IMG/VR virus record: IMGVR_UViG_2850796239_000008
Length of the DNA: 23,815 nt
Reading direction: 5' to 3' (one strand)
Source of the DNA: a virus
Lineage: Duplodnaviria > Heunggongvirae > Uroviricota > Caudoviricetes
Shown: in pieces, positions 2,084 to 8,937 of the stretch
How the letters are laid out: every line of letters begins with the position of its first letter
Position numbering within the stretch: position 1 is the stretch's first letter
Made by a program: the position numbers and the translations under genes
Notes under the pieces: model-generated
Databases searched by the model: none
Seen by the model: the letters and a program-made list of their open reading frames with translations, nothing else
Told to the model about the DNA's origin: nothing

Positions 2084-2272
2084 TCACGAGGACTGAAGTT
2101 TCTCGCAATTAAAATTTATCAGTTTTACTTTCTGCTCTCTGGAAACGCCTGCTTCTTTTTCCCCTGAGAGCATTTTTTCGCATTCTGATTTCGTTAGTTT
2201 TGTCTTTGAGTATCTTGTCCAGCTGGCAGGAGAACCACCTTCCTTTTCAATAGTGGCTGTAATTTTATACAT
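2084..2272 (-). CDS. Small prophage early protein, 62 aa (possibly YdaC/DUF1187-like)
   Basis: ATG preceded by GGAGGT at 5 nt; the longer ORF in the track starts at a TTG. Family assignment is from memory only. Confidence 0.5.
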   Translation of the reverse strand: MYKITATIEKEGGSPASWTRYSKTKLTKSECEKMLSGEKEAGVSREQKVKLINFNCEKLQSS

Positions 2273-3425: not shown

Positions 3426-3722
3426 TTAGTCCTCCAAATCAATATCAACCTGGTGGTGGGCAATGGTTTCAGCCATGTACCGGATGTGTTCTGCCATGCG
3501 CTCCTGAAACTCAACATCATCATCAAATGCGTGGCTGATTGCCTGTTTATTGGCACCGTGGCGTTGCAAATGGTCGATGCAGAGCGATTCAAACAGGTGC
3601 TGAGGCAGACCTTTTTCCAGGTCGTCCGCCAGTTCCGTTTCTTTTTCTTCACGAACGATCTGCTGGTAGTGGCGAGCCCATGCCATTTCTTCAATACGAT
3701 CAAAAATCGGGTAAGCGCTCAT
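3426..3722 (-). CDS. Hypothetical acidic protein, 98 aa
   Basis: ATG at 3720-3722 (a GTG lies 3 nt upstream); stop lies 3 nt before the Sak4-like start, so tightly coupled in the operon. No recognisable motif. Confidence 0.5.
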
Positions 3723-5640
3723 CACTGGTCACTCCAAAATTTTCAAGCTTGTTGGCAATCATCATTGCGATGTCAGGGATTGCAGGCGCATAGGCTATGC
3801 ACGCAGGATTCGCACATAAACCGTAAACCGCCGCAATCAACACCTGTTTTTTCCAGTTGAGTTCATCTTCGCCAGTTTCATTATTGCTATCATTATGCTG
3901 ATCGCTGCCAGCGTTCTCCGGTAACAAATCATCAGCTTTTTCCGTTTTCTTCGGCTCTTCTTCCTGTGCTTCATCTGGTTTTTTTTCGTCAAAAGTTTCC
4001 TGATAAGTTGCGTCTCCCATCACCGCGCCACAGTCAGGGCAGTTATCCTCGCCAGTCTGATTGCAGGGTGTTCCCTCCTCCGGTTCGCTGTTCTGGTGCT
4101 GTTTATCTTCAGTCTGTCGCACTTCATTTTCCGTTTTTTTGACTTCATTTGAGGAGATATGATGACCGGGAATCCATTTCGAATCATTCGGGTCGCTAAT
4201 CCCTTCAACAAATTCTCCGCGAGAGGCAGCCAGTAATTTGTCTGCATCGACAGGATTTTTGGGCGGAATGTTTTTCCGGGCTTCATGGAGTTCTGTCCGC
4301 AGTTTCTGATATTTCGCATCAACAGCATTTACCTGTGACTGAGCATCCAGCGGCTGCGTGTCCTGATGATGTTCAGTTGCATCCGGTTCCACTGTTTCAG
4401 CCGTTGCCTGTTCATCTGCCATTGCGCAAGATGGTTGCGGTTTTTCTTCATCATCCTGTTTTCCTTCTTCTGTTACACGTTGCGGCATCGGGGCAGAGGA
4501 GCGACCGCAGGCAATATCCACGATTTCCGGATCAGGGTTGGCATGATCGGTTTCAGTCAGTACCTTGTTCAGATATTCAGTGACGTGCGCGGGGATGACC
4601 TCGATACCAATCGGTGCTTCTTTCACTGACGCAACCACGATGGCGCGGGAATAATCCATCCCGCCAGGCATGGTGATGAATTTGTCGCGGAAAACAGAAA
4701 AGGGCGGTTTATTTTCAGCGATAATTTCCTCGACACGTTTAGCGTGTGCCGGATGAAGGTTATAAATATCCACGTCCATTGAACGGGCCAGTACGCCAGT
4801 GGCTACGTCGCGCGCCAGCGACGTCAGATCGTGGACGAAACCTTCGCCGCGATCGGTGAGGTTCCCGCCGCCAGCATTAGCACCGGAAGCCGTGCGAGTG
4901 ATACGCGAAACACGATTTCCTTTCATCCACTCTTTTGTCAGCAGACCGCGATCGGTGTAGTTGGCATCCAGATATGCTTCGAAAAAAGCAGTCATCAGTC
5001 CCAGATTTGAATTACCAGGATTAGGGAAAACTTTGTCAGTATCACGCACGAGTTTGTGGAGGTCGCGAATCTCCAGCGGGTCGAGCAGACTGGTTTTATG
5101 CGAAACAGCCAGAGCAGTAACAGCCGGTAGTTCTTCATCCCGAGCAATGTGTAATGCCTGGAGTTCGTCGCGTGAAACGTGCGTTACCGGTTTTTCGCTG
5201 CCGTGTTGCGCAAGCCAACGAATGGGCAGTTCCTGACCGGAAACTGGCAGGAGCATGTTCTCCTCAATTTCTGTCATGTCTTCGCCGTTGACGTTGGTAT
5301 TGTCAGTGCTGGCTGGTTTGTCCTGAACAGAGGGAGAAGATGCGATAAATACCATTGTGATGCCATCTTCCCCGCCTTTTTCGTAACGGTTGCAGAATTC
5401 CGTATCAAACACGCCTTCTGGTGGGAGGTCATCAACAACGGGCAAATTGACGCGAACAGGTTTTTTAAAGTCATCTTCATCGTAGCCAGCATCGTCAATC
5501 GCAACAGCACCACGGGAGATGGCAATGGATAATTTTTTCGCTTCAGCCCAGTAAAAACCGCCTTTAATACCGAGGCGTTTTCTTACTTTGTCATTTTTTG
5601 CTTCGTAATACAGTGGGTAAACTTGTTTATCGGTGCTCAT
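3700..5640 (-). CDS. Large acidic early protein, 646 aa; occupies the recE position and may resemble the non-catalytic N-terminal part of exonuclease VIII; no nuclease motif seen
   Basis: Uninterrupted 1941-nt ORF with ATG at 5638-5640; long D/E-rich low-complexity stretch (about residues 380-560); Cys cluster [14 protein letters not shown]-terminus ...[18 protein letters not shown]. Confidence 0.6.
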
Positions 5641-6332: not shown

Positions 6333-6880
6333 TTATTTTAAGGAAAGCAACTGCTCTACGGTCATGTTTTTAATTGCGCCCCGGTTTACAAGAGTCCAGC
6401 CCTGTTTTTCCAGGTAGAACTGGAAAGTCTCCAGGGTACAGACCAGTGCGCCATCAGGAACGGTTTCGGTGAATTCGACATTGCCGAATTTGTCGAAGTG
6501 AACAACCAGAGTGCGACCATCACCCGGAATCATCTTGTCAGCAGGTGGGGTGTTATTCTGGCGCAGTTCGGCCTCCATGCGGTCGAACTCAGCAATGTAG
6601 GCTTCCTTGAATGTGGCGGCTTTTTTGCCCGTGAAGCCCATCACCAGGAAAACGAAGCCGTTTTTGGTGATTTGGTAGGCGTTATAAGAATTGCCGCGGT
6701 GTTCGAATTTAACCCGCGAAAAGTTGCTGGTTAAAAATAGTTCAGAACATTCGAGGGATTCTATTTTTTGAACAACATGGTGATGCTGCTTGCCAAAAAA
6801 CTCAGCAATCGAAATAGAAGTAGTGACGGCGCGACCATTTTCGATGGTTACGTCAGGGTGAGAAAGGGTAGTAGCCATAA
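6333..6880 (-). CDS. Rha-family phage regulatory protein; the ORF is open in frame up to 7172
   Basis: Phage_pRha-type N-terminus TTSISIAEFFGKQHHHVVQKIESL right after the Met at 6878-6880 (RBS GAGGA 8 nt upstream). The upstream 97 codons are Pro/Gly/Arg-rich and look non-conserved. Confidence 0.7.
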
Positions 6881-7193
6881 TGACATCCTCAAGTGATAAG
6901 TTAATTAACTCACCAGCAGAGGTGCTAATCTCATGGGTGGTGAGACGCACAGGGTTAGCACTACCGGTCACTCGAGAACCCGGCCAGCCTTGCGGCTGCC
7001 CCGCACGCCTCACCATAATTTGAATGTGGCTGTGCATTACGCATAAAAAAACCGCTTCAGCGCGGCTATGCGCTCGAGTAACTTTCGGGGTGCTAATCCC
7101 GGCACCCGTTTTATGAGGTGCAGGTGCACTATAATTCCACCCGTTCTGGTTTTCAATAGCTACATTCAACATTTTCTCTTTCCTTTCATCACC

Positions 7194-7348
7194 GAAGTGA
7201 ATTTTGTGATGCGGTGCCTGGTGCCTCCAGGTGACGTTAACCAGTTAACAATTACAGTCGGCTTTCCCACCCAAAACAATAAGGACTAACATGACTTTTA
7301 ACTGTGCCGCGTGCGCTTAGCCGCATTCACCGCATCACAAAATTCACT
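7194..7348. repeat. Perfect 22-bp inverted repeat pair (AAGTGAATTTTGTGATGCGGTG / CACCGCATCACAAAATTCACTT) flanking 111 bp
   Basis: Arms at 7194-7215 and 7327-7348 are exact reverse complements. The spacer contains GTTAACCAGTTAAC (7235-7248) and the short hairpin CCTGGtgcctCCAGG. Confidence 0.85.
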
Positions 7349-7585
7349 TTAAAAAGGGCGGACATCAGCCAGCAATTAAACCGATGCCGCCAACTGGTAC
7401 TTCACACAGCAATGTCGTTATTTACAACCGGAAGCGCACTCCCACCATTTAAATTTCACAGACAAGACCGACTCTTTATGGATACCGGAAATGCGCCTTC
7501 GTGTTGTGCCCGGTTTTATTTCACCACCTCCGGGCTTTGGTGGTATCTTTACTGAAGTTCTCACACAACCAGTAAGGAAATGAAT

Positions 7586-7876
7586 ATGCCAACGTATCTC
7601 GCCAGAGTAGAACTATATAATGCTGAGCCAGAGGATTACGAAGGGCTTCATAAATATATGCTCTCACTAGGATTCAGGAGAACGATCCCCCATGGAGATG
7701 GTTCGTATAATCAACTCCCGGACGGAACTTATGTTTTCGAAAAGGGCGGTGATATTTATCAAATTCGCAGCCAGATATCTGACTATGCAGACCGACTATC
7801 CGGGTATCGCGCGTCTGTTTTTGTTTGCGAATTCAGTCAATGCGCATGGTATTTATACCCCGCCAAGACCCGGTGA
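7586..7876 (+). CDS. Hypothetical 96-aa protein on the opposite strand to the early operon (moron)
   Basis: ATG at 7586 with AAGGAA RBS at 6-nt spacing; product MPTYLARVELYNAEPEDYEGLHKYMLSLGF... has a beta-alpha-beta-like pattern; its 3' end overlaps the convergent minus-strand gene by 24 nt. Confidence 0.5.
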   Translation: MPTYLARVELYNAEPEDYEGLHKYMLSLGFRRTIPHGDGSYNQLPDGTYVFEKGGDIYQIRSQISDYADRLSGYRASVFVCEFSQCAWYLYPAKTR

Positions 7877-8056
7877 ATATCCTGCACGGCCTTCTGCTTT
7901 GTAGAAGGCTTCTTCGCTATCATAATCGCCAGATTCCAGCGCTTCTTTAGCCAGCCAGATGCGTGCCCCAGTGCCTGCATTTGGCTCCAGTTGCTGGAGG
8001 CGTTTTGCATCTTCTAGGAGTAGAGCGATAACGTGTTTTAATTCTGTCTCGTTCAT
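7853..8056 (-). CDS. Hypothetical 67-aa early protein
   Basis: ATG at 8054-8056 with GGTGAG RBS; start lies 1 nt after the stop of the upstream gene, so translationally coupled. Product MNETELKHVIALLLEDAKRLQQ... Confidence 0.45.
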   Translation of the reverse strand: MNETELKHVIALLLEDAKRLQQLEPNAGTGARIWLAKEALESGDYDSEEAFYKAEGRAGYSPGLGGV

Positions 8057-8057
8057 T

Positions 8058-8213
8058 TTACTCACCTGAATGTCTTCCCAACCAACGACGTGCGCCAGCT
8101 TCGGTTTTAAACGTTTTGCTTTTGGTATACGTCATGGCGGTGAATGTGCCGTCTTGATTGGGAAACACGCCACATACCAGAGATTCGTTGTTGCCAAGAT
8201 CGATAGTATTCAT
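8058..8213 (-). CDS. Small prophage protein, 51 aa (YdaF/YdfA-like, DUF1391-type)
   Basis: ATG at 8211-8213; product MNTIDLGNNESLVCGVFPNQDGTFTAMTYTKSKTFKTEAGARRWLGRHSGE matches in length and character the 51-aa Rac-region protein as I recall it. Confidence 0.55.
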   Translation of the reverse strand: MNTIDLGNNESLVCGVFPNQDGTFTAMTYTKSKTFKTEAGARRWLGRHSGE

Positions 8214-8460: not shown

Positions 8461-8937
8461 CTACAAAAAAGCCCGCTGATAGCGGGCTGATTGGCATATT
8501 ACTGTGATAGCAAGATCATTATTCCGGTGGGGATTATCTTTAATCCTGCCTCTCAAATATTTTTCTACATACTCATCGATTTCTTTTAGCCGGACTTCAA
8601 ATAGCTCAATCATTCGTTGTTGTTCTGAGCCCGGTAGCTGGTTAAACAACTCAAGAAGTTTTCGTTGGGATTCATTTAACCACAATTCAGAAGATTCCTG
8701 TTCTCCAAAGAGGAGCTCAGGAGGAGATATGCCAAGTGCCTTTCCCAATACGACAGCGTCATGTACTCCAACATTTCTGCTGCCCGCCTCATAGTTACCT
8801 ATACGCGATTGCGTCCATCCGCAGATTTCAGCAAGTTTTCCTTGAGATAAACCAAGCTTCTGCCTGCGCTCTTTAAGACGCATTGCAATTTTGTCATTGA
8901 GCCTACTAGCGGCAATTTTTTCGTTTTCTTTTTCCAT
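8461..8937 (-). CDS. racR: Prophage repressor, XRE-family HTH, 158 aa (RacR-type)
   Basis: ATG at 8935-8937; HTH region LGLSQGKLAEICGWTQSRIGNYEAG; 158 aa; divergent from a Cro-like gene across a 96-bp operator region. Confidence 0.85.
   Translation of the reverse strand: MEKENEKIAASRLNDKIAMRLKERRQKLGLSQGKLAEICGWTQSRIGNYEAGSRNVGVHDAVVLGKALGISPPELLFGEQESSELWLNESQRKLLELFNQLPGSEQQRMIELFEVRLKEIDEYVEKYLRGRIKDNPHRNNDLAITVICQSARYQRAFL
8465..8488 (-). terminator. Rho-independent terminator at the end of the repressor gene
   Basis: Minus strand reads AGCCCGC-TATC-GCGGGCT followed by TTTTTT; the hairpin overlaps the last 8 codons and stop of the repressor ORF. Confidence 0.6.

What the first reader, a model, noticed from the sequence alone, without database searches (positions are those of the whole stretch)
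7586..8056. Opposite-strand moron converging on, and overlapping, the early operon next to the immunity region
A 96-aa gene with a good RBS lies on the plus strand inside an otherwise minus-strand early operon. Its last 24 nt overlap the 3' end of a 67-aa minus-strand gene that is translationally coupled to the YdaF-like gene. Repressor-proximal opposite-strand inserts in lambdoid prophages often carry superinfection-exclusion or host-fitness functions. The convergent overlap would also allow antisense interference between the two transcripts. Neither protein has a motif I can assign.
Basis: partly seen in the sequence, partly recalled or inferred. Interest (0 to 1): 0.55.

Follow-up and report, generated by a model that had tools for sequence, protein, structure and literature searches.

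The report
YmfI-type moron in prophage sieB slot
The plus-strand ORF is a real but unannotated prophage accessory gene: a small YmfI-family protein with the fold of the RNA-cutting proteins GhoS and Cas2. It sits where related prophages carry the exclusion gene sieB, its function is untested, and in E. coli it appears to be decaying.

Summary
A 96-aa plus-strand ORF (7586-7876, RBS AAGGA) converges on a 67-aa minus-strand ORF (8056-7853). They overlap by 24 nt, and the 67-aa ORF starts 1 nt after the ydaF/DUF1391 stop codon.

It lies on a roughly 350-bp cassette in the slot where Rac carries sieB. A predicted extended -10 promoter and 5'UTR lie upstream and are shared with e14 ymfI. A hairpin follows the stop codon.

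The 67-aa ORF is a YmfJ-family gene. Its 42-aa N-terminal domain is strongly conserved. Its tail, which includes the overlap, is a by-product of the cassette junction.

The same geometry is already present in K-12: ymfI/ymfJ overlap by 63 nt, and sieB/ydaF by 4 nt.

Function is unknown. No GhoT-like toxin gene is present, and there is no PADLOC hit.

In E. coli the cassette is rare (19 of 5426 complete genomes). PGAP never annotates it, and it shows relaxed constraint.

Verdict: a new member of a known, uncharacterised kind; modest interest.

The parts
7520..7549 (+). Predicted sigma-70 promoter of the moron: -35 TTCACC (7520-7525), 18-nt spacer holding the inverted repeat CACCACC/GGTGGT(A), extended -10 TGgTATCTT (7541-7549). 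Expected transcription start is about 7556.
   Evidence: Found by a permissive scan; the stricter scan found nothing. The same architecture is conserved upstream of e14 ymfI (TTCACC-16-TGgTATGCT), of the Salmonella orthologue, and of an unrelated 59-aa gene in O157:H7 (TTTACC-16-TGgTATACT). Prediction only.
7550..7585 (+). Conserved 5'UTR (CTGAAGTTCTCACACAACCAGTAAGGAA) with RBS AAGGA at 7575-7579.
   Evidence: Alignments. The sequence is shared by four lineages, one of which carries a different gene.
7586..7876 (+). 96-aa CDS: YmfI-family protein (PHROG 8894) with a GhoS/Cas2-like ferredoxin fold.
7552..7901 (+). Exchangeable cassette: RBS, CDS and 25 nt of 3' sequence.
   Evidence: 88.6% identical to Salmonella Give prophages in an otherwise unrelated neighbourhood. 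Present in 19 of 5426 complete E. coli genomes.
7888..7910 (+). 10-bp hairpin (GGCCUUCUGC-UUU-GUAGAAGGCU) followed by UCUUCGCU. Terminator-like element of the moron, lying inside the tail of the 67-aa ORF and spanning the recombination joint at about 7901.
   Evidence: RNA fold -20.8 kcal/mol, z -3.95. The Salmonella orthologue has a different hairpin followed by a U tract at the same place. The U tract here is weak, and the terminator scan did not report this element.
7853..7876 (.). 24-nt convergent overlap: codons 90-96 plus the stop of the 96-aa gene, against codons 61-67 plus the stop of the 67-aa ORF.
   Evidence: In the 96-aa family only L90 is conserved in this stretch. In the 67-aa ORF the tail carries 0 synonymous: 3 nonsynonymous polymorphisms.
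7931..8056 (-). Conserved 42-codon YmfJ N-terminal domain of the 67-aa ORF.
   Evidence: 81% identical to e14 YmfJ residues 1-42. 124 homologue clusters share this domain and have C-termini of 36-116 aa total length. Against e14, dS is saturated and dN is 0.14. In E. coli, 7 synonymous: 2 nonsynonymous. PGAP annotates exactly this stretch as a truncated pseudogene.
7853..7930 (-). Non-conserved 25-codon tail of the 67-aa ORF. The last 14 codons or so (AEGRAGYSPGLGGV) are the antisense reading of the cassette's 3' end.
   Evidence: Unrelated convergent ORFs beside the Salmonella and MAG orthologues end the same way: AEGRSGSSSGLGPV and DGRAGSSLGLGSV. Homology to ymfJ starts only at 7946.
8058..8213 (-). 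ydaF (DUF1391) gene. Its stop lies 1 nt before the ATG of the 67-aa ORF.
   Evidence: Pfam PF07151 E 5.8e-29; sequence.
7195..7547 (.). Left flank, 91% identical to the kilR-sieB intergenic region of K-12 Rac. It includes a KilS sRNA homologue at about 7351-7445 on the minus strand.

Best explanation
Shown:
- The plus-strand ORF is a genuine protein-coding gene of the YmfI family (PHROG 8894). This is a large family of roughly 95-aa proteins found mostly on prophages and other mobile elements, and it is remotely related to GhoS/DUF2622.
- The protein adopts a GhoS/Cas2-type ferredoxin fold.
- The gene lies on a roughly 350-bp cassette (7552-7901) in the slot of a Rac-like prophage that holds sieB in Rac itself.
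- The 67-aa minus-strand ORF is a YmfJ-family early gene. Its conserved 42-aa N-terminal domain is intact. Its tail was created when the cassette was joined to it, so the 24-nt overlap is a by-product of recombination between variable tails.
- The same convergent, overlapping ymfI/ymfJ pair beside the repressor is annotated in e14 of E. coli K-12.

Inferred:
- In the lysogen the repressor silences the leftward early operon. The gene is then transcribed rightward from its own extended -10 promoter (7520-7549), translated from AAGGA/ATG 7586, and terminated at the hairpin at 7888-7910.
- On induction, leftward transcription through ydaF and ymfJ' runs antisense across the gene and should suppress it.
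- The product is most likely a small cytoplasmic RNA-binding or RNA-cleaving protein that gives the lysogen an accessory function: exclusion or defence against other phages, or RNA-level control of prophage transcripts. It is not a classical type V antitoxin.
- In this E. coli cryptic-prophage lineage the gene has lost the small convergent partner gene that accompanies it in many other enterobacterial prophages, and it seems to be under relaxed selection.
For: Identity:
- PHROG 8894, E 1.1e-37, full length. e14 YmfI hits the same PHROG at 8.6e-40.
- BLASTP against K-12 YmfI: 27% identity, E 2e-11.
- NCBIfam YmfI_phage is the only NCBIfam hit.
- Some relatives carry the source names 'DUF2622' or 'GhoS'. 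24 of 68 aligned relatives hit Pfam GhoS, best E 2.4e-8.

Fold:
- pLDDT 91.8.
- hhalign places nearly invariant E9 and H22 opposite GhoS D15 and R28. R28 is reported as the key catalytic residue of GhoS (PMC4010927).

Coding:
- dN/dS 0.12-0.36 for this clade and 0.03-0.1 in the Citrobacter-type clade.
- 971 representative relatives.

Slot and cassette:
- The flanks match the Rac kilR-sieB region and ymfJ/ydaF. The cassette matches Salmonella prophages.
- sieB (PF14163) occupies the slot in Rac and in phage 666R9, converging on ydaF with a 4-nt overlap.
- A different 59-aa gene occupies it in O157:H7.

Orientation: the gene is a lone opposite-strand gene in all prophage contexts examined.

Promoter, 5'UTR and hairpin.

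e14 parallel:
- ymfI and ymfJ overlap by 63 nt next to the repressor ymfK.
- ymfJ is strongly induced late in the SOS response and its protein is detected, whereas ymfI changes little (PMC11002266).
Against: - There are no expression data for this gene. The promoter is only a consensus-level prediction, and the stricter scan found nothing. The hairpin has a weak U tract.
- The residue aligned with catalytic R28 is His, not Arg.
- No defence-system model matches, and no literature on function was found.
- PGAP annotates the gene in none of the 19 complete E. coli genomes that carry it.
- E. coli alleles show near-neutral change: 3 synonymous against 4 nonsynonymous, 2 nonsense (E9*, Q59*), 1 stop loss and IS2 truncations.
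- The window allele carries a private S51F change.
Confidence: 0.6

Rival explanations
1. Decaying remnant. The ORF descends from a functional phage gene but has no function in this cryptic E. coli prophage. It is intact here only because too little time has passed for it to break.
For: E. coli alleles: 3 synonymous: 4 nonsynonymous, plus 2 nonsense, 1 stop loss, IS2 insertion at 7622/7623 and a further truncation. dN/dS of window against Salmonella is 0.36, compared with 0.12 for Salmonella against the MAG and 0.03-0.1 in the Citrobacter-type clade. The usual convergent partner gene is lost. The host prophage is riddled with IS elements and pseudogenes in the closest genome. The window allele has a private S51F change.
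Against: The ORF, RBS, predicted promoter and hairpin are all intact in the window and in most alleles. Counts are small and the alleles are not independent. e14 keeps an intact ymfI in the same arrangement.
Confidence: 0.25
2. One half of a two-gene convergent module. The YmfI-like protein works with the small acidic 'MKFxEL...AAAFIAME' protein encoded tail-to-tail with it (for example as a regulator/effector or toxin/antidote pair). In the window the module is broken.
For: The partner converges on YmfI-like genes, mostly with a 4-nt overlap, in 10 loci. These span three different positions in prophage genomes: the early-left slot, the Q-lysis gap and the lysis-terminase gap. Partner homology: 33% identity, E 2e-5 between the Salmonella and Citrobacter versions. 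Partner dN/dS is 0.25-0.4. Only the last 16 codons or so of such a partner survive in the window, fused to the YmfJ N-domain.
Against: Burkholderia, Caulobacter and Sediminibacterium relatives lack the partner. e14 ymfI and the window gene are paired with the unrelated YmfJ instead (hhalign probability 0.2%). No physical or functional link was tested.
Confidence: 0.2
3. A classical type V toxin-antitoxin antitoxin. A GhoS orthologue cleaves the mRNA of an adjacent small membrane toxin.
For: Some relatives are named GhoS in source annotation. GhoS is the best structural match.
Against: No co-directional hydrophobic ORF follows the gene in the window or in 13 related loci. Gene calls in all contexts show a lone gene. 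The Pfam GhoS score is below the gathering threshold.
Confidence: 0.04
4. The transcription matters, not the protein. A conserved rightward promoter in this slot fires against the early-left operon and damps leaky expression of kil and recombination genes in the lysogen. The gene carried is incidental.
For: The promoter and 5'UTR are conserved in four lineages with two unrelated genes downstream. Convergent geometry is a constant of the slot: sieB/ydaF overlap by 4 nt, ymfI/ymfJ by 63 nt, and the pair here by 24 nt.
Against: Strong purifying selection on the protein in other lineages. The same protein family is found in other prophage positions with other upstream sequences. The hairpin directly after the stop would limit antisense reach to about 60 nt of the ymfJ' tail.
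Confidence: 0.1
5. A protein-binding inhibitor rather than an RNase. For example, a Cas2-like decoy or anti-defence factor that helps the phage.
For: Cas2-type fold. Small single-domain phage accessory proteins are often inhibitors (general knowledge).
Against: The orientation against the lytic operons suggests expression in the lysogen rather than during infection. Conserved polar residues (R7, E9, Y18, H22) look more like a ligand or active site than a binding surface. Nothing was tested.
Confidence: 0.08

Closest known systems
ymfI / ymfJ of the e14 cryptic prophage, E. coli K-12 (b1143 / b1144)
   Same: Homologous proteins: YmfI 27% identity, same PHROG 8894; YmfJ N-domain 81% identity. 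Same geometry: the plus-strand gene converges on and overlaps the first-operon gene beside the repressor. Same predicted promoter and 5'UTR.
   Different: The e14 overlap is 63 nt and YmfJ is full length (102 aa); YmfI is 113 aa. Here the overlap is 24 nt and YmfJ is cut to its N-domain plus a foreign tail. ydaF lies between it and a RacR-type repressor. The protein is too divergent for the NCBIfam equivalog (53.6 against 140 bits). Neither e14 protein has a known function.
GhoS (YjdK), type V antitoxin endoribonuclease, PDB 2LLZ, Pfam PF11080 (formerly DUF2622)
   Different: 14% identity. Below the Pfam gathering score. His replaces the key Arg28. No ghoT-like toxin gene. Located on a prophage against the operon direction, rather than in a chromosomal ghoST operon.
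sieB (superinfection exclusion B) of Rac, lambda and P22
   Same: Same slot and same orientation: between kilR/KilS and ydaF, converging on ydaF. The 350 bp to the left are shared.
   Different: Not homologous. SieB (PF14163) is a 162-203-aa protein whose Pfam model the window protein does not match. The window protein is a 96-aa soluble alpha/beta domain. No exclusion activity has been shown.
Cas2 / VapD small ferredoxin-fold nucleases
   Different: No detectable sequence similarity. No CRISPR or vapX context.

Membership tests
YmfI family phage protein (NCBIfam NF051477; PHROG 8894) | Score at or above the NCBIfam equivalog cut-off (140 bits) | tested here: not met
   53.6 bits, E 2.3e-14, covering 3-90 of the protein and 3-88 of 89 profile positions. 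Homologous, but outside the equivalog.
YmfI family phage protein (NCBIfam NF051477; PHROG 8894) | Full-length match to the PHROG that contains e14 YmfI | tested here: met
   phrog_8894 E 1.1e-37, 1-94 of 94. K-12 YmfI hits the same PHROG at 8.6e-40. Pairwise E 2e-11.
YmfI family phage protein (NCBIfam NF051477; PHROG 8894) | Genomic setting as in e14: opposite-strand gene converging on a ymfJ-type gene near the repressor, with the same upstream sequence | tested here: met
GhoS (Pfam PF11080), type V TA antitoxin | Pfam gathering score (21 bits) | tested here: not met
   No hit at E<0.1 for the window protein. Orthologues score 12.3-17.7 bits. 24 of 68 more distant relatives hit at E<=0.01, best 2.4e-8.
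GhoS (Pfam PF11080), type V TA antitoxin | GhoS/Cas2-type ferredoxin fold | tested here: met
GhoS (Pfam PF11080), type V TA antitoxin | Catalytic Arg28 (reported as the most important residue, PMC4010927) | tested here: inconclusive
   hhalign (probability 29%) aligns nearly invariant His22 with Arg28, and Glu9 with Asp15. The position is conserved but the residue differs.
GhoS (Pfam PF11080), type V TA antitoxin | Co-transcribed small membrane toxin gene (ghoT) downstream | tested here: not met
   No conserved or hydrophobic co-directional ORF downstream in the window or in 13 related loci.
GhoS (Pfam PF11080), type V TA antitoxin | Sequence-specific endoribonuclease activity | not testable with these tools
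   Needs purified protein and RNA substrates.
Moron (independently transcribed accessory gene inserted in a phage operon; definition from general knowledge of the phage literature) | Present in some and absent from other closely related phages, at a fixed junction between conserved genes | tested here: met
   The same flanks hold sieB, a 59-aa gene or this gene. The cassette is in 19 of 5426 E. coli genomes, while parts of the surrounding 1-kb region match in 4436.
Moron (independently transcribed accessory gene inserted in a phage operon; definition from general knowledge of the phage literature) | Own promoter and terminator | tested here: inconclusive
   Conserved extended -10 promoter-like site and a stable hairpin after the stop. 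Neither was found by the stricter scan, and neither has been verified experimentally.
SieB superinfection exclusion protein (PF14163) | Sequence match to the SieB model | tested here: not met
   No Pfam SieB hit. The predicted structure is a soluble alpha/beta domain. Rac SieB hits PF14163 at 1.5e-31.
Known anti-phage defence systems (PADLOC-DB 2.0) | Match to any defence-protein model | tested here: not met
   0 families at E<=1 for both ORFs.
YmfJ family (phrog_12693), for the 67-aa ORF | Conserved N-terminal domain of about 42 aa | tested here: met
   81% identity to YmfJ residues 1-42. phrog_12693 1-44, E 9e-18. Invariant core in 19 aligned homologues.
YmfJ family (phrog_12693), for the 67-aa ORF | Full-length (about 102 aa) protein with the YmfJ C-terminal region | tested here: not met
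   The match stops at residue 42-44. PGAP flags the ORF as 'missing C-terminus'. However, many homologues are only 44-60 aa long, so the N-domain may be the functional unit.

The most novel reading that the evidence does not exclude
YmfI-family morons are orphan GhoS/Cas2-fold endoribonucleases expressed from the prophage. They would form a widespread single-gene (or convergent two-gene) system that cleaves specific transcripts. The targets would be either mRNAs of superinfecting phages (a soluble, RNA-level counterpart of SieB occupying the same slot) or leak-through early transcripts of the prophage itself. A conserved promoter and 5'UTR would serve as a plug-in site for alternative exclusion genes.
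Probability: 0.15. Interest if true: 0.65.

Novelty: new member of a known kind. Interest (0 to 1): 0.35.

Why it matters
1. The gene is missed by RefSeq annotation in every complete E. coli genome that carries it. Meanwhile its neighbour is labelled a pseudogene even though its N-terminal domain is under strong selection. Both annotations could be improved.

2. The result links the uncharacterised K-12 genes ymfI and ymfJ to a large family. These roughly 95-aa GhoS/Cas2-fold proteins sit, always against the grain, at accessory-gene hotspots of temperate phages in several proteobacterial groups. That gives a concrete biochemical hypothesis for a 'y-gene': RNA binding or cleavage through R7/E9/Y18/H22.

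3. The kilR-ydaF junction appears to be an exchange slot holding alternative genes such as sieB and this gene. A predicted promoter and 5'UTR conserved upstream of several of them (though not evidently of Rac sieB), and the conserved ymfJ N-domain where present, could anchor the exchange. Such a slot is where new prophage-encoded exclusion functions might be found.

For this particular window the practical importance is limited, because the E. coli copy seems to be decaying.

Tried and rejected
- PADLOC scan of both ORFs and their neighbours: nothing relevant.
- Pfam scan of the window protein: no hit.
- Sequence search of the PDB with the family profile: nothing below E=1.
- BFVD viral structure library: no informative match. 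The AFDB50 library was unavailable.
- Search for a GhoT-like toxin ORF downstream of the gene in 14 loci: none. The classical type V toxin-antitoxin reading was rejected.
- Test of whether the YmfJ N-domain and the 'MKFxEL' partner family are related: hhalign probability 0.2%, rejected. The partner family has no Pfam match.
- Scan of genome contigs with the 68-sequence alignment failed because no stretch was conserved enough. The 6-sequence alignment returned only 4 loci.
- Literature: nothing on the E. coli gene in the 20 listed of 48 'ymfI' papers (mostly B. subtilis ymfI), nothing for DUF2622, and nothing relevant for GhoS-like, GhoS homolog or PF11080. The original GhoS paper (PMC3514572) is not held, so only R28 could be cited, second-hand.
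- Two E. coli papers that mention ymfI or ymfJ added nothing on ymfI expression.
- The strict promoter scan found no plus-strand promoter upstream. The promoter proposed here rests on a looser scan plus conservation.
- Alternative-frame ORFs in the region (7692-7904 plus strand, 7837-8010 minus strand, 7825-7950 plus strand) were treated as spurious. They are out-of-frame shadows of the two supported genes, and one of them appears only in frameshifted database entries.
- A 97-aa 'hypothetical protein' annotated in the slot of phage vB_EcoS-689R5 looks like a non-coding artefact: it is Arg-rich and has no similarity to the family.
Full report
**1. The observation**

- The plus-strand ORF runs from ATG 7586 to TGA 7874-7876 (96 aa). 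AAGGA lies at 7575-7579.
- An upstream in-frame ATG at 7580 is not the start. Orthologues begin at the position of 7586, and one orthologue has a 1-nt deletion between the two ATGs.
- The minus-strand ORF runs from ATG 8056 to TAA 7855-7853 (67 aa). The two ORFs overlap at 7853-7876 (24 nt).
- The DUF1391/YdaF gene (8213-8061; Pfam E 5.8e-29) stops at 8060-8058. That is one base before the ATG of the 67-aa ORF, with GGTGAG just upstream, so translational coupling is plausible.
- The neighbourhood is the immunity region of a Rac-like prophage. To the right are an HTH repressor (8461-8937, minus strand), a cro-like gene (9034-9276, plus strand) and ydaT. To the left are Rha-type, YdaE and RecE-type genes on the minus strand.

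**2. The 96-aa ORF is a real gene**

- It matches PHROG 8894 over its full length (E 1.1e-37). Its only NCBIfam hit is 'YmfI family phage protein', at 53.6 bits against a cut-off of 140.
- It is 27% identical to YmfI of the e14 prophage of K-12 (E 2e-11). YmfI hits the same PHROG.
- Close homologues of constant length (95 aa) occur in Salmonella, Citrobacter and a metagenomic genome at 57-86% identity.
- Nei-Gojobori dN/dS is 0.36 against Salmonella, and 0.14 and 0.12 in the two comparisons with the metagenomic orthologue. Within a Citrobacter-type clade it is 0.03-0.1.
- A profile search of 1.84 billion representative proteins finds 971 relatives at E<=0.001, nearly all 90-105 aa long.
- The family alignment has invariant R7 and Y18. 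E9, L21, H22, M25, P45, Y49 and L90 are at least 90% conserved, giving the motif RVELH...DYE.LH..M...LP.GTY.

**3. Fold and remote family**

- The window protein has no Pfam hit. Its orthologues hit PF11080 (GhoS, formerly DUF2622) below threshold, at 12-18 bits against 21.
- 24 of 68 aligned relatives hit PF11080 at E<=0.01, best 2.4e-8. Some relatives are named 'DUF2622 domain-containing' or 'GhoS' in source annotation.
- With the 68-sequence alignment, AlphaFold2 gives pLDDT 91.8 and a beta-alpha-beta-beta-alpha-beta domain.
- Generic ferredoxin folds score only a little lower, so the fold class is firm but the specific link to GhoS is moderate.
- A profile-to-GhoS alignment is collinear (probability 29%). 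It puts E9 opposite GhoS D15 and H22 opposite R28. R28 is reported as the most important residue for GhoS RNase activity (PMC4010927).
- The GhoS sequence I used from memory was verified against 2LLZ.

**4. It is not a type V toxin-antitoxin system**

- GhoS is co-transcribed with the small membrane toxin GhoT. No conserved or hydrophobic co-directional ORF follows the gene in the window or in 13 related loci.
- Gene calls in all contexts show a lone gene.
- No PADLOC defence model matches either ORF.

**5. Anatomy of the insert**

- BLASTN against related loci divides the region into blocks.
  - 7195-7547 is 91% identical to the kilR-sieB intergenic region of K-12 Rac and of Rac-like phage vB_EcoS-666R9.
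  - 7552-7901 is 88.6% identical to Salmonella Give prophages whose surroundings are otherwise unrelated.
  - 7946 and 7969 onward match e14 ymfJ and the O157:H7 ymfJ-like/ydaF region respectively.
  - 7902-7945 has no match among the related loci compared.
- In Rac and in phage 666R9 the slot between kilR and ydaF holds sieB (PF14163) on the plus strand. It converges on ydaF with a 4-nt overlap.
- In O157:H7 strain 2571 the slot holds an unrelated 59-aa plus-strand gene followed by the same truncated ymfJ-like pseudogene.
- In phage HannyBb the slot contains an unannotated 106-aa plus-strand ORF rich in hydrophobic stretches.
- So this is a cassette-exchange slot, and the 96-aa gene is one of the genes it can carry.

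**6. Expression signals (predicted)**

- A strict promoter scan found nothing on the plus strand.
- A looser scan finds -35 TTCACC (7520-7525), an 18-nt spacer and an extended -10 TGgTATCTT (7541-7549).
- This element and the following 5'UTR (CTGAAGTTCTCACACAACCAGTAAGGAA) are conserved upstream of three other genes. These are e14 ymfI (TTCACC-16-TGgTATGCT), the Salmonella orthologue (same), and the unrelated O157 gene (TTTACC-16-TGgTATACT).
- The spacer holds a conserved inverted repeat, CACCAC(C)...GGTGGT.
- Directly after the stop codon, a 10-bp hairpin (7888-7910; -20.8 kcal/mol, z -3.95) is followed by UCUUCGCU. The Salmonella orthologue has a different hairpin with a better U tract at the same place.
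- The hairpin in the window straddles the recombination joint.
- These features fit the usual picture of a moron with its own promoter and terminator, but none has been verified experimentally.

**7. The 67-aa ORF**

- Its first 42 residues are 81% identical to e14 YmfJ. The match to the YmfJ PHROG stops at residue 44.
- 124 homologue clusters share an almost invariant core (ELKHVIALLLEDAKRLQQLEPNAGTEARIW). After it come unrelated C-termini, giving total lengths of 36-116 aa. Many are only 44-60 aa.
- Against e14 the 42 codons are saturated at synonymous sites, with dN 0.14. The N-domain is therefore a selected peptide domain, not merely conserved DNA.
- PGAP annotates exactly these 42 codons as a pseudogene 'missing C-terminus'.
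- The last 14 residues or so (AEGRAGYSPGLGGV) recur at the ends of unrelated convergent ORFs next to the Salmonella and metagenomic orthologues: AEGRSGSSSGLGPV and DGRAGSSLGLGSV. They are the antisense reading of the cassette's 3' end.
- The 67-aa ORF is therefore a chimera of the YmfJ N-domain and a junction-derived tail.
- The 24-nt overlap lies in the variable C-terminal tails of both proteins. In the 96-aa family only L90 is conserved there.

**8. A precedent, and a partner gene elsewhere**

- In e14 of K-12, ymfI (plus strand) and ymfJ (minus strand) converge and overlap by 63 nt next to the repressor ymfK.
- In an SOS time course, ymfJ mRNA rises by a log2 fold change of 4-4.8 late in the response and YmfJ protein is detected. 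ymfI changes little (PMC11002266). That fits ymfJ being an early-left gene under repressor control and ymfI being transcribed independently.
- In 10 other prophage loci the YmfI-like gene converges on a small acidic protein (MKFxEL...AAAFIAME, 53-96 aa), with a 4-nt overlap in 8 of them.
  - These loci are in Salmonella, Citrobacter, Photorhabdus and IMG/VR contigs.
  - The positions differ: the early-left slot, the Q-lysis gap and the lysis-terminase gap.
  - The partner is under purifying selection (dN/dS 0.25-0.4). The Salmonella and Citrobacter versions are homologous (E 2e-5). It is unrelated to YmfJ and has no Pfam match.
- This suggests a two-gene convergent module in many enterobacterial phages. 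In the window only the partner's last codons remain.
- Relatives in Burkholderia prophages and in Caulobacter and Sediminibacterium elements lack this partner.

**9. Orientation rule**

In the prophage contexts examined, the YmfI-like gene is a single gene facing against the flanking phage operons. These contexts are the window, four Salmonella loci, Citrobacter, a metagenomic genome, S. Choleraesuis, Photorhabdus and two Burkholderia types. This is the strongest indirect argument that the gene is expressed from the prophage independently of lytic transcription.

**10. State of the gene in E. coli**

- The cassette is found in 19 of 5426 complete E. coli genomes, and no feature is annotated under it in any of them.
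- I compared 29 E. coli, Shigella and IMG/VR alleles.
  - The 96-aa ORF has 3 synonymous and 4 nonsynonymous variable sites, two nonsense alleles (E9*, Q59*) and one stop loss. It also has IS2 insertions that remove the first 11 codons or so, and one further truncation.
  - The YmfJ N-domain has 7 synonymous and 2 nonsynonymous sites.
  - Its 25-codon tail has 0 synonymous and 3 nonsynonymous sites.
- The window allele carries F51, which is shared only with two near-identical genomes. Every other allele and every close orthologue has Ser at that position.
- The counts are small, but they point to relaxed constraint on the moron and continued constraint on the YmfJ N-domain in this lineage.

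**11. Most likely mechanism**

Shown:
- Gene identity, fold class, cassette borders, slot equivalence with sieB, the origin of the overlap, and the precedent in e14.

Inferred:
- Rightward transcription in the lysogen from the conserved promoter, with termination at the hairpin.
- Suppression by convergent early-left transcription on induction.
- A product that binds or cuts RNA through the R7/E9/Y18/H22 surface and gives the lysogen an accessory phenotype, such as exclusion or RNA-level control.

Confidence:
- High that it is a YmfI-family GhoS/Cas2-fold moron in the sieB slot.
- Low (about 0.15-0.25) for any specific biochemical role.

The main rivals are simple decay of a once-functional gene, dependence on the lost partner gene, and a role for the transcription rather than the protein.

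**12. Novelty**

The family, the e14 precedent and the slot are all on record, although uncharacterised. This is therefore a new member of a known kind. The additions made here are:
- the fold assignment;
- the conserved promoter and 5'UTR shared by different genes in the slot;
- the convergent partner family;
- the reinterpretation of the 'pseudogene'.

None of these is surprising enough, or well enough tested, to raise the score much.

Noticed in passing
window 7351-7445 (-): Homologue (about 90% identical) of the Hfq-dependent sRNA KilS of K-12 Rac (kilR 5'UTR, own promoter; PMC8175672). It ends in the terminator-like hairpin and U run at 7388-7351. It lies about 75 nt from, and divergent to, the predicted moron promoter. 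In this window the gene downstream of it is a Rha-type gene, not kilR.
   Followed up: partly
window 6933-7020 (-) and 7045-7121 (-): Rfam hits above gathering score to C4 antisense RNA (78.6 bits) and isrK (66.8 bits). Both lie inside the 5' third of the 279-aa 'Rha/Ash' ORF (6333-7172) that PGAP annotates as one protein. This looks like a P1 c4/ant-type or Gifsy isrK/antirepressor module. The Pfam 'Ash' match (residues 14-105) covers the RNA genes, so the real protein may start further downstream.
   Followed up: no
window 2088-2266 (+): RalA sRNA (Rfam 207 bits), the antitoxin of the RalR/RalA type I toxin-antitoxin system of Rac-type prophages.
   Followed up: no
window 7526-7547 (+): Inverted repeat CACCACC-N10-GGTGGT(A) between the predicted -35 and -10 elements, preceded by a T run. 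It is conserved in Rac, O157:H7, Salmonella and e14 irrespective of the downstream gene. It could be an operator or an RNA structure. It does not have the layout of an intrinsic terminator on either strand.
   Followed up: partly
window 7491-7583 (+): 30-aa ORF whose ATG corresponds to the start annotated for the long (203-aa) sieB of phage vB_EcoS-666R9. Its TGA stop overlaps the ATG at 7580 (ATGA). It is probably a relic with no function; K-12 annotates sieB as starting downstream of the point where homology with the window ends.
   Followed up: partly
window 8217/8226 versus K-12 Rac L022 3316-3466: The ydaG-like 44-aa gene that lies between ydaF and the repressor in Rac, phage 666R9 and O157:H7 is absent from the window. 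Homology jumps across it.
   Followed up: no
L005 5268-5516, L009 5285-5506, L018 4279-4458, L019 4313-4474, L033, L034, L062-L065: A small acidic protein family (MKFxEL...AAAFIAME; phrog_26625 and phrog_9419) is encoded tail-to-tail with YmfI-like genes, usually with a 4-nt overlap. It occurs at three different positions in prophage genomes. This may be a conserved convergent two-gene module.
   Followed up: partly
L017 3239-3532 (+) / 3513-3782 (-): In the metagenomic Rac-like prophage, a second convergent overlapping pair sits immediately left of the YmfI-like pair. It consists of a 97-aa Cys-rich plus-strand ORF and an 89-aa minus-strand ORF with a 20-nt overlap, so the slot can hold two such cassettes in tandem.
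   Followed up: no
L067 (phage HannyBb) 987-1307 (+): Unannotated 106-aa plus-strand ORF rich in hydrophobic stretches lies in the equivalent slot. The record instead annotates a 205-aa minus-strand ORF across it. It may be another exclusion-type gene.
   Followed up: no
L013/L014 (Shigella flexneri SFBU1023, E. coli ECMA0423), junction equivalent to window 7622/7623: An IS2 end abuts codon 12 of the 96-aa gene and removes its start and promoter. The IMG/VR alleles L057 and L058 break at or near the same point (7623 and 7627), and a third (L059) breaks at 7668.
   Followed up: partly
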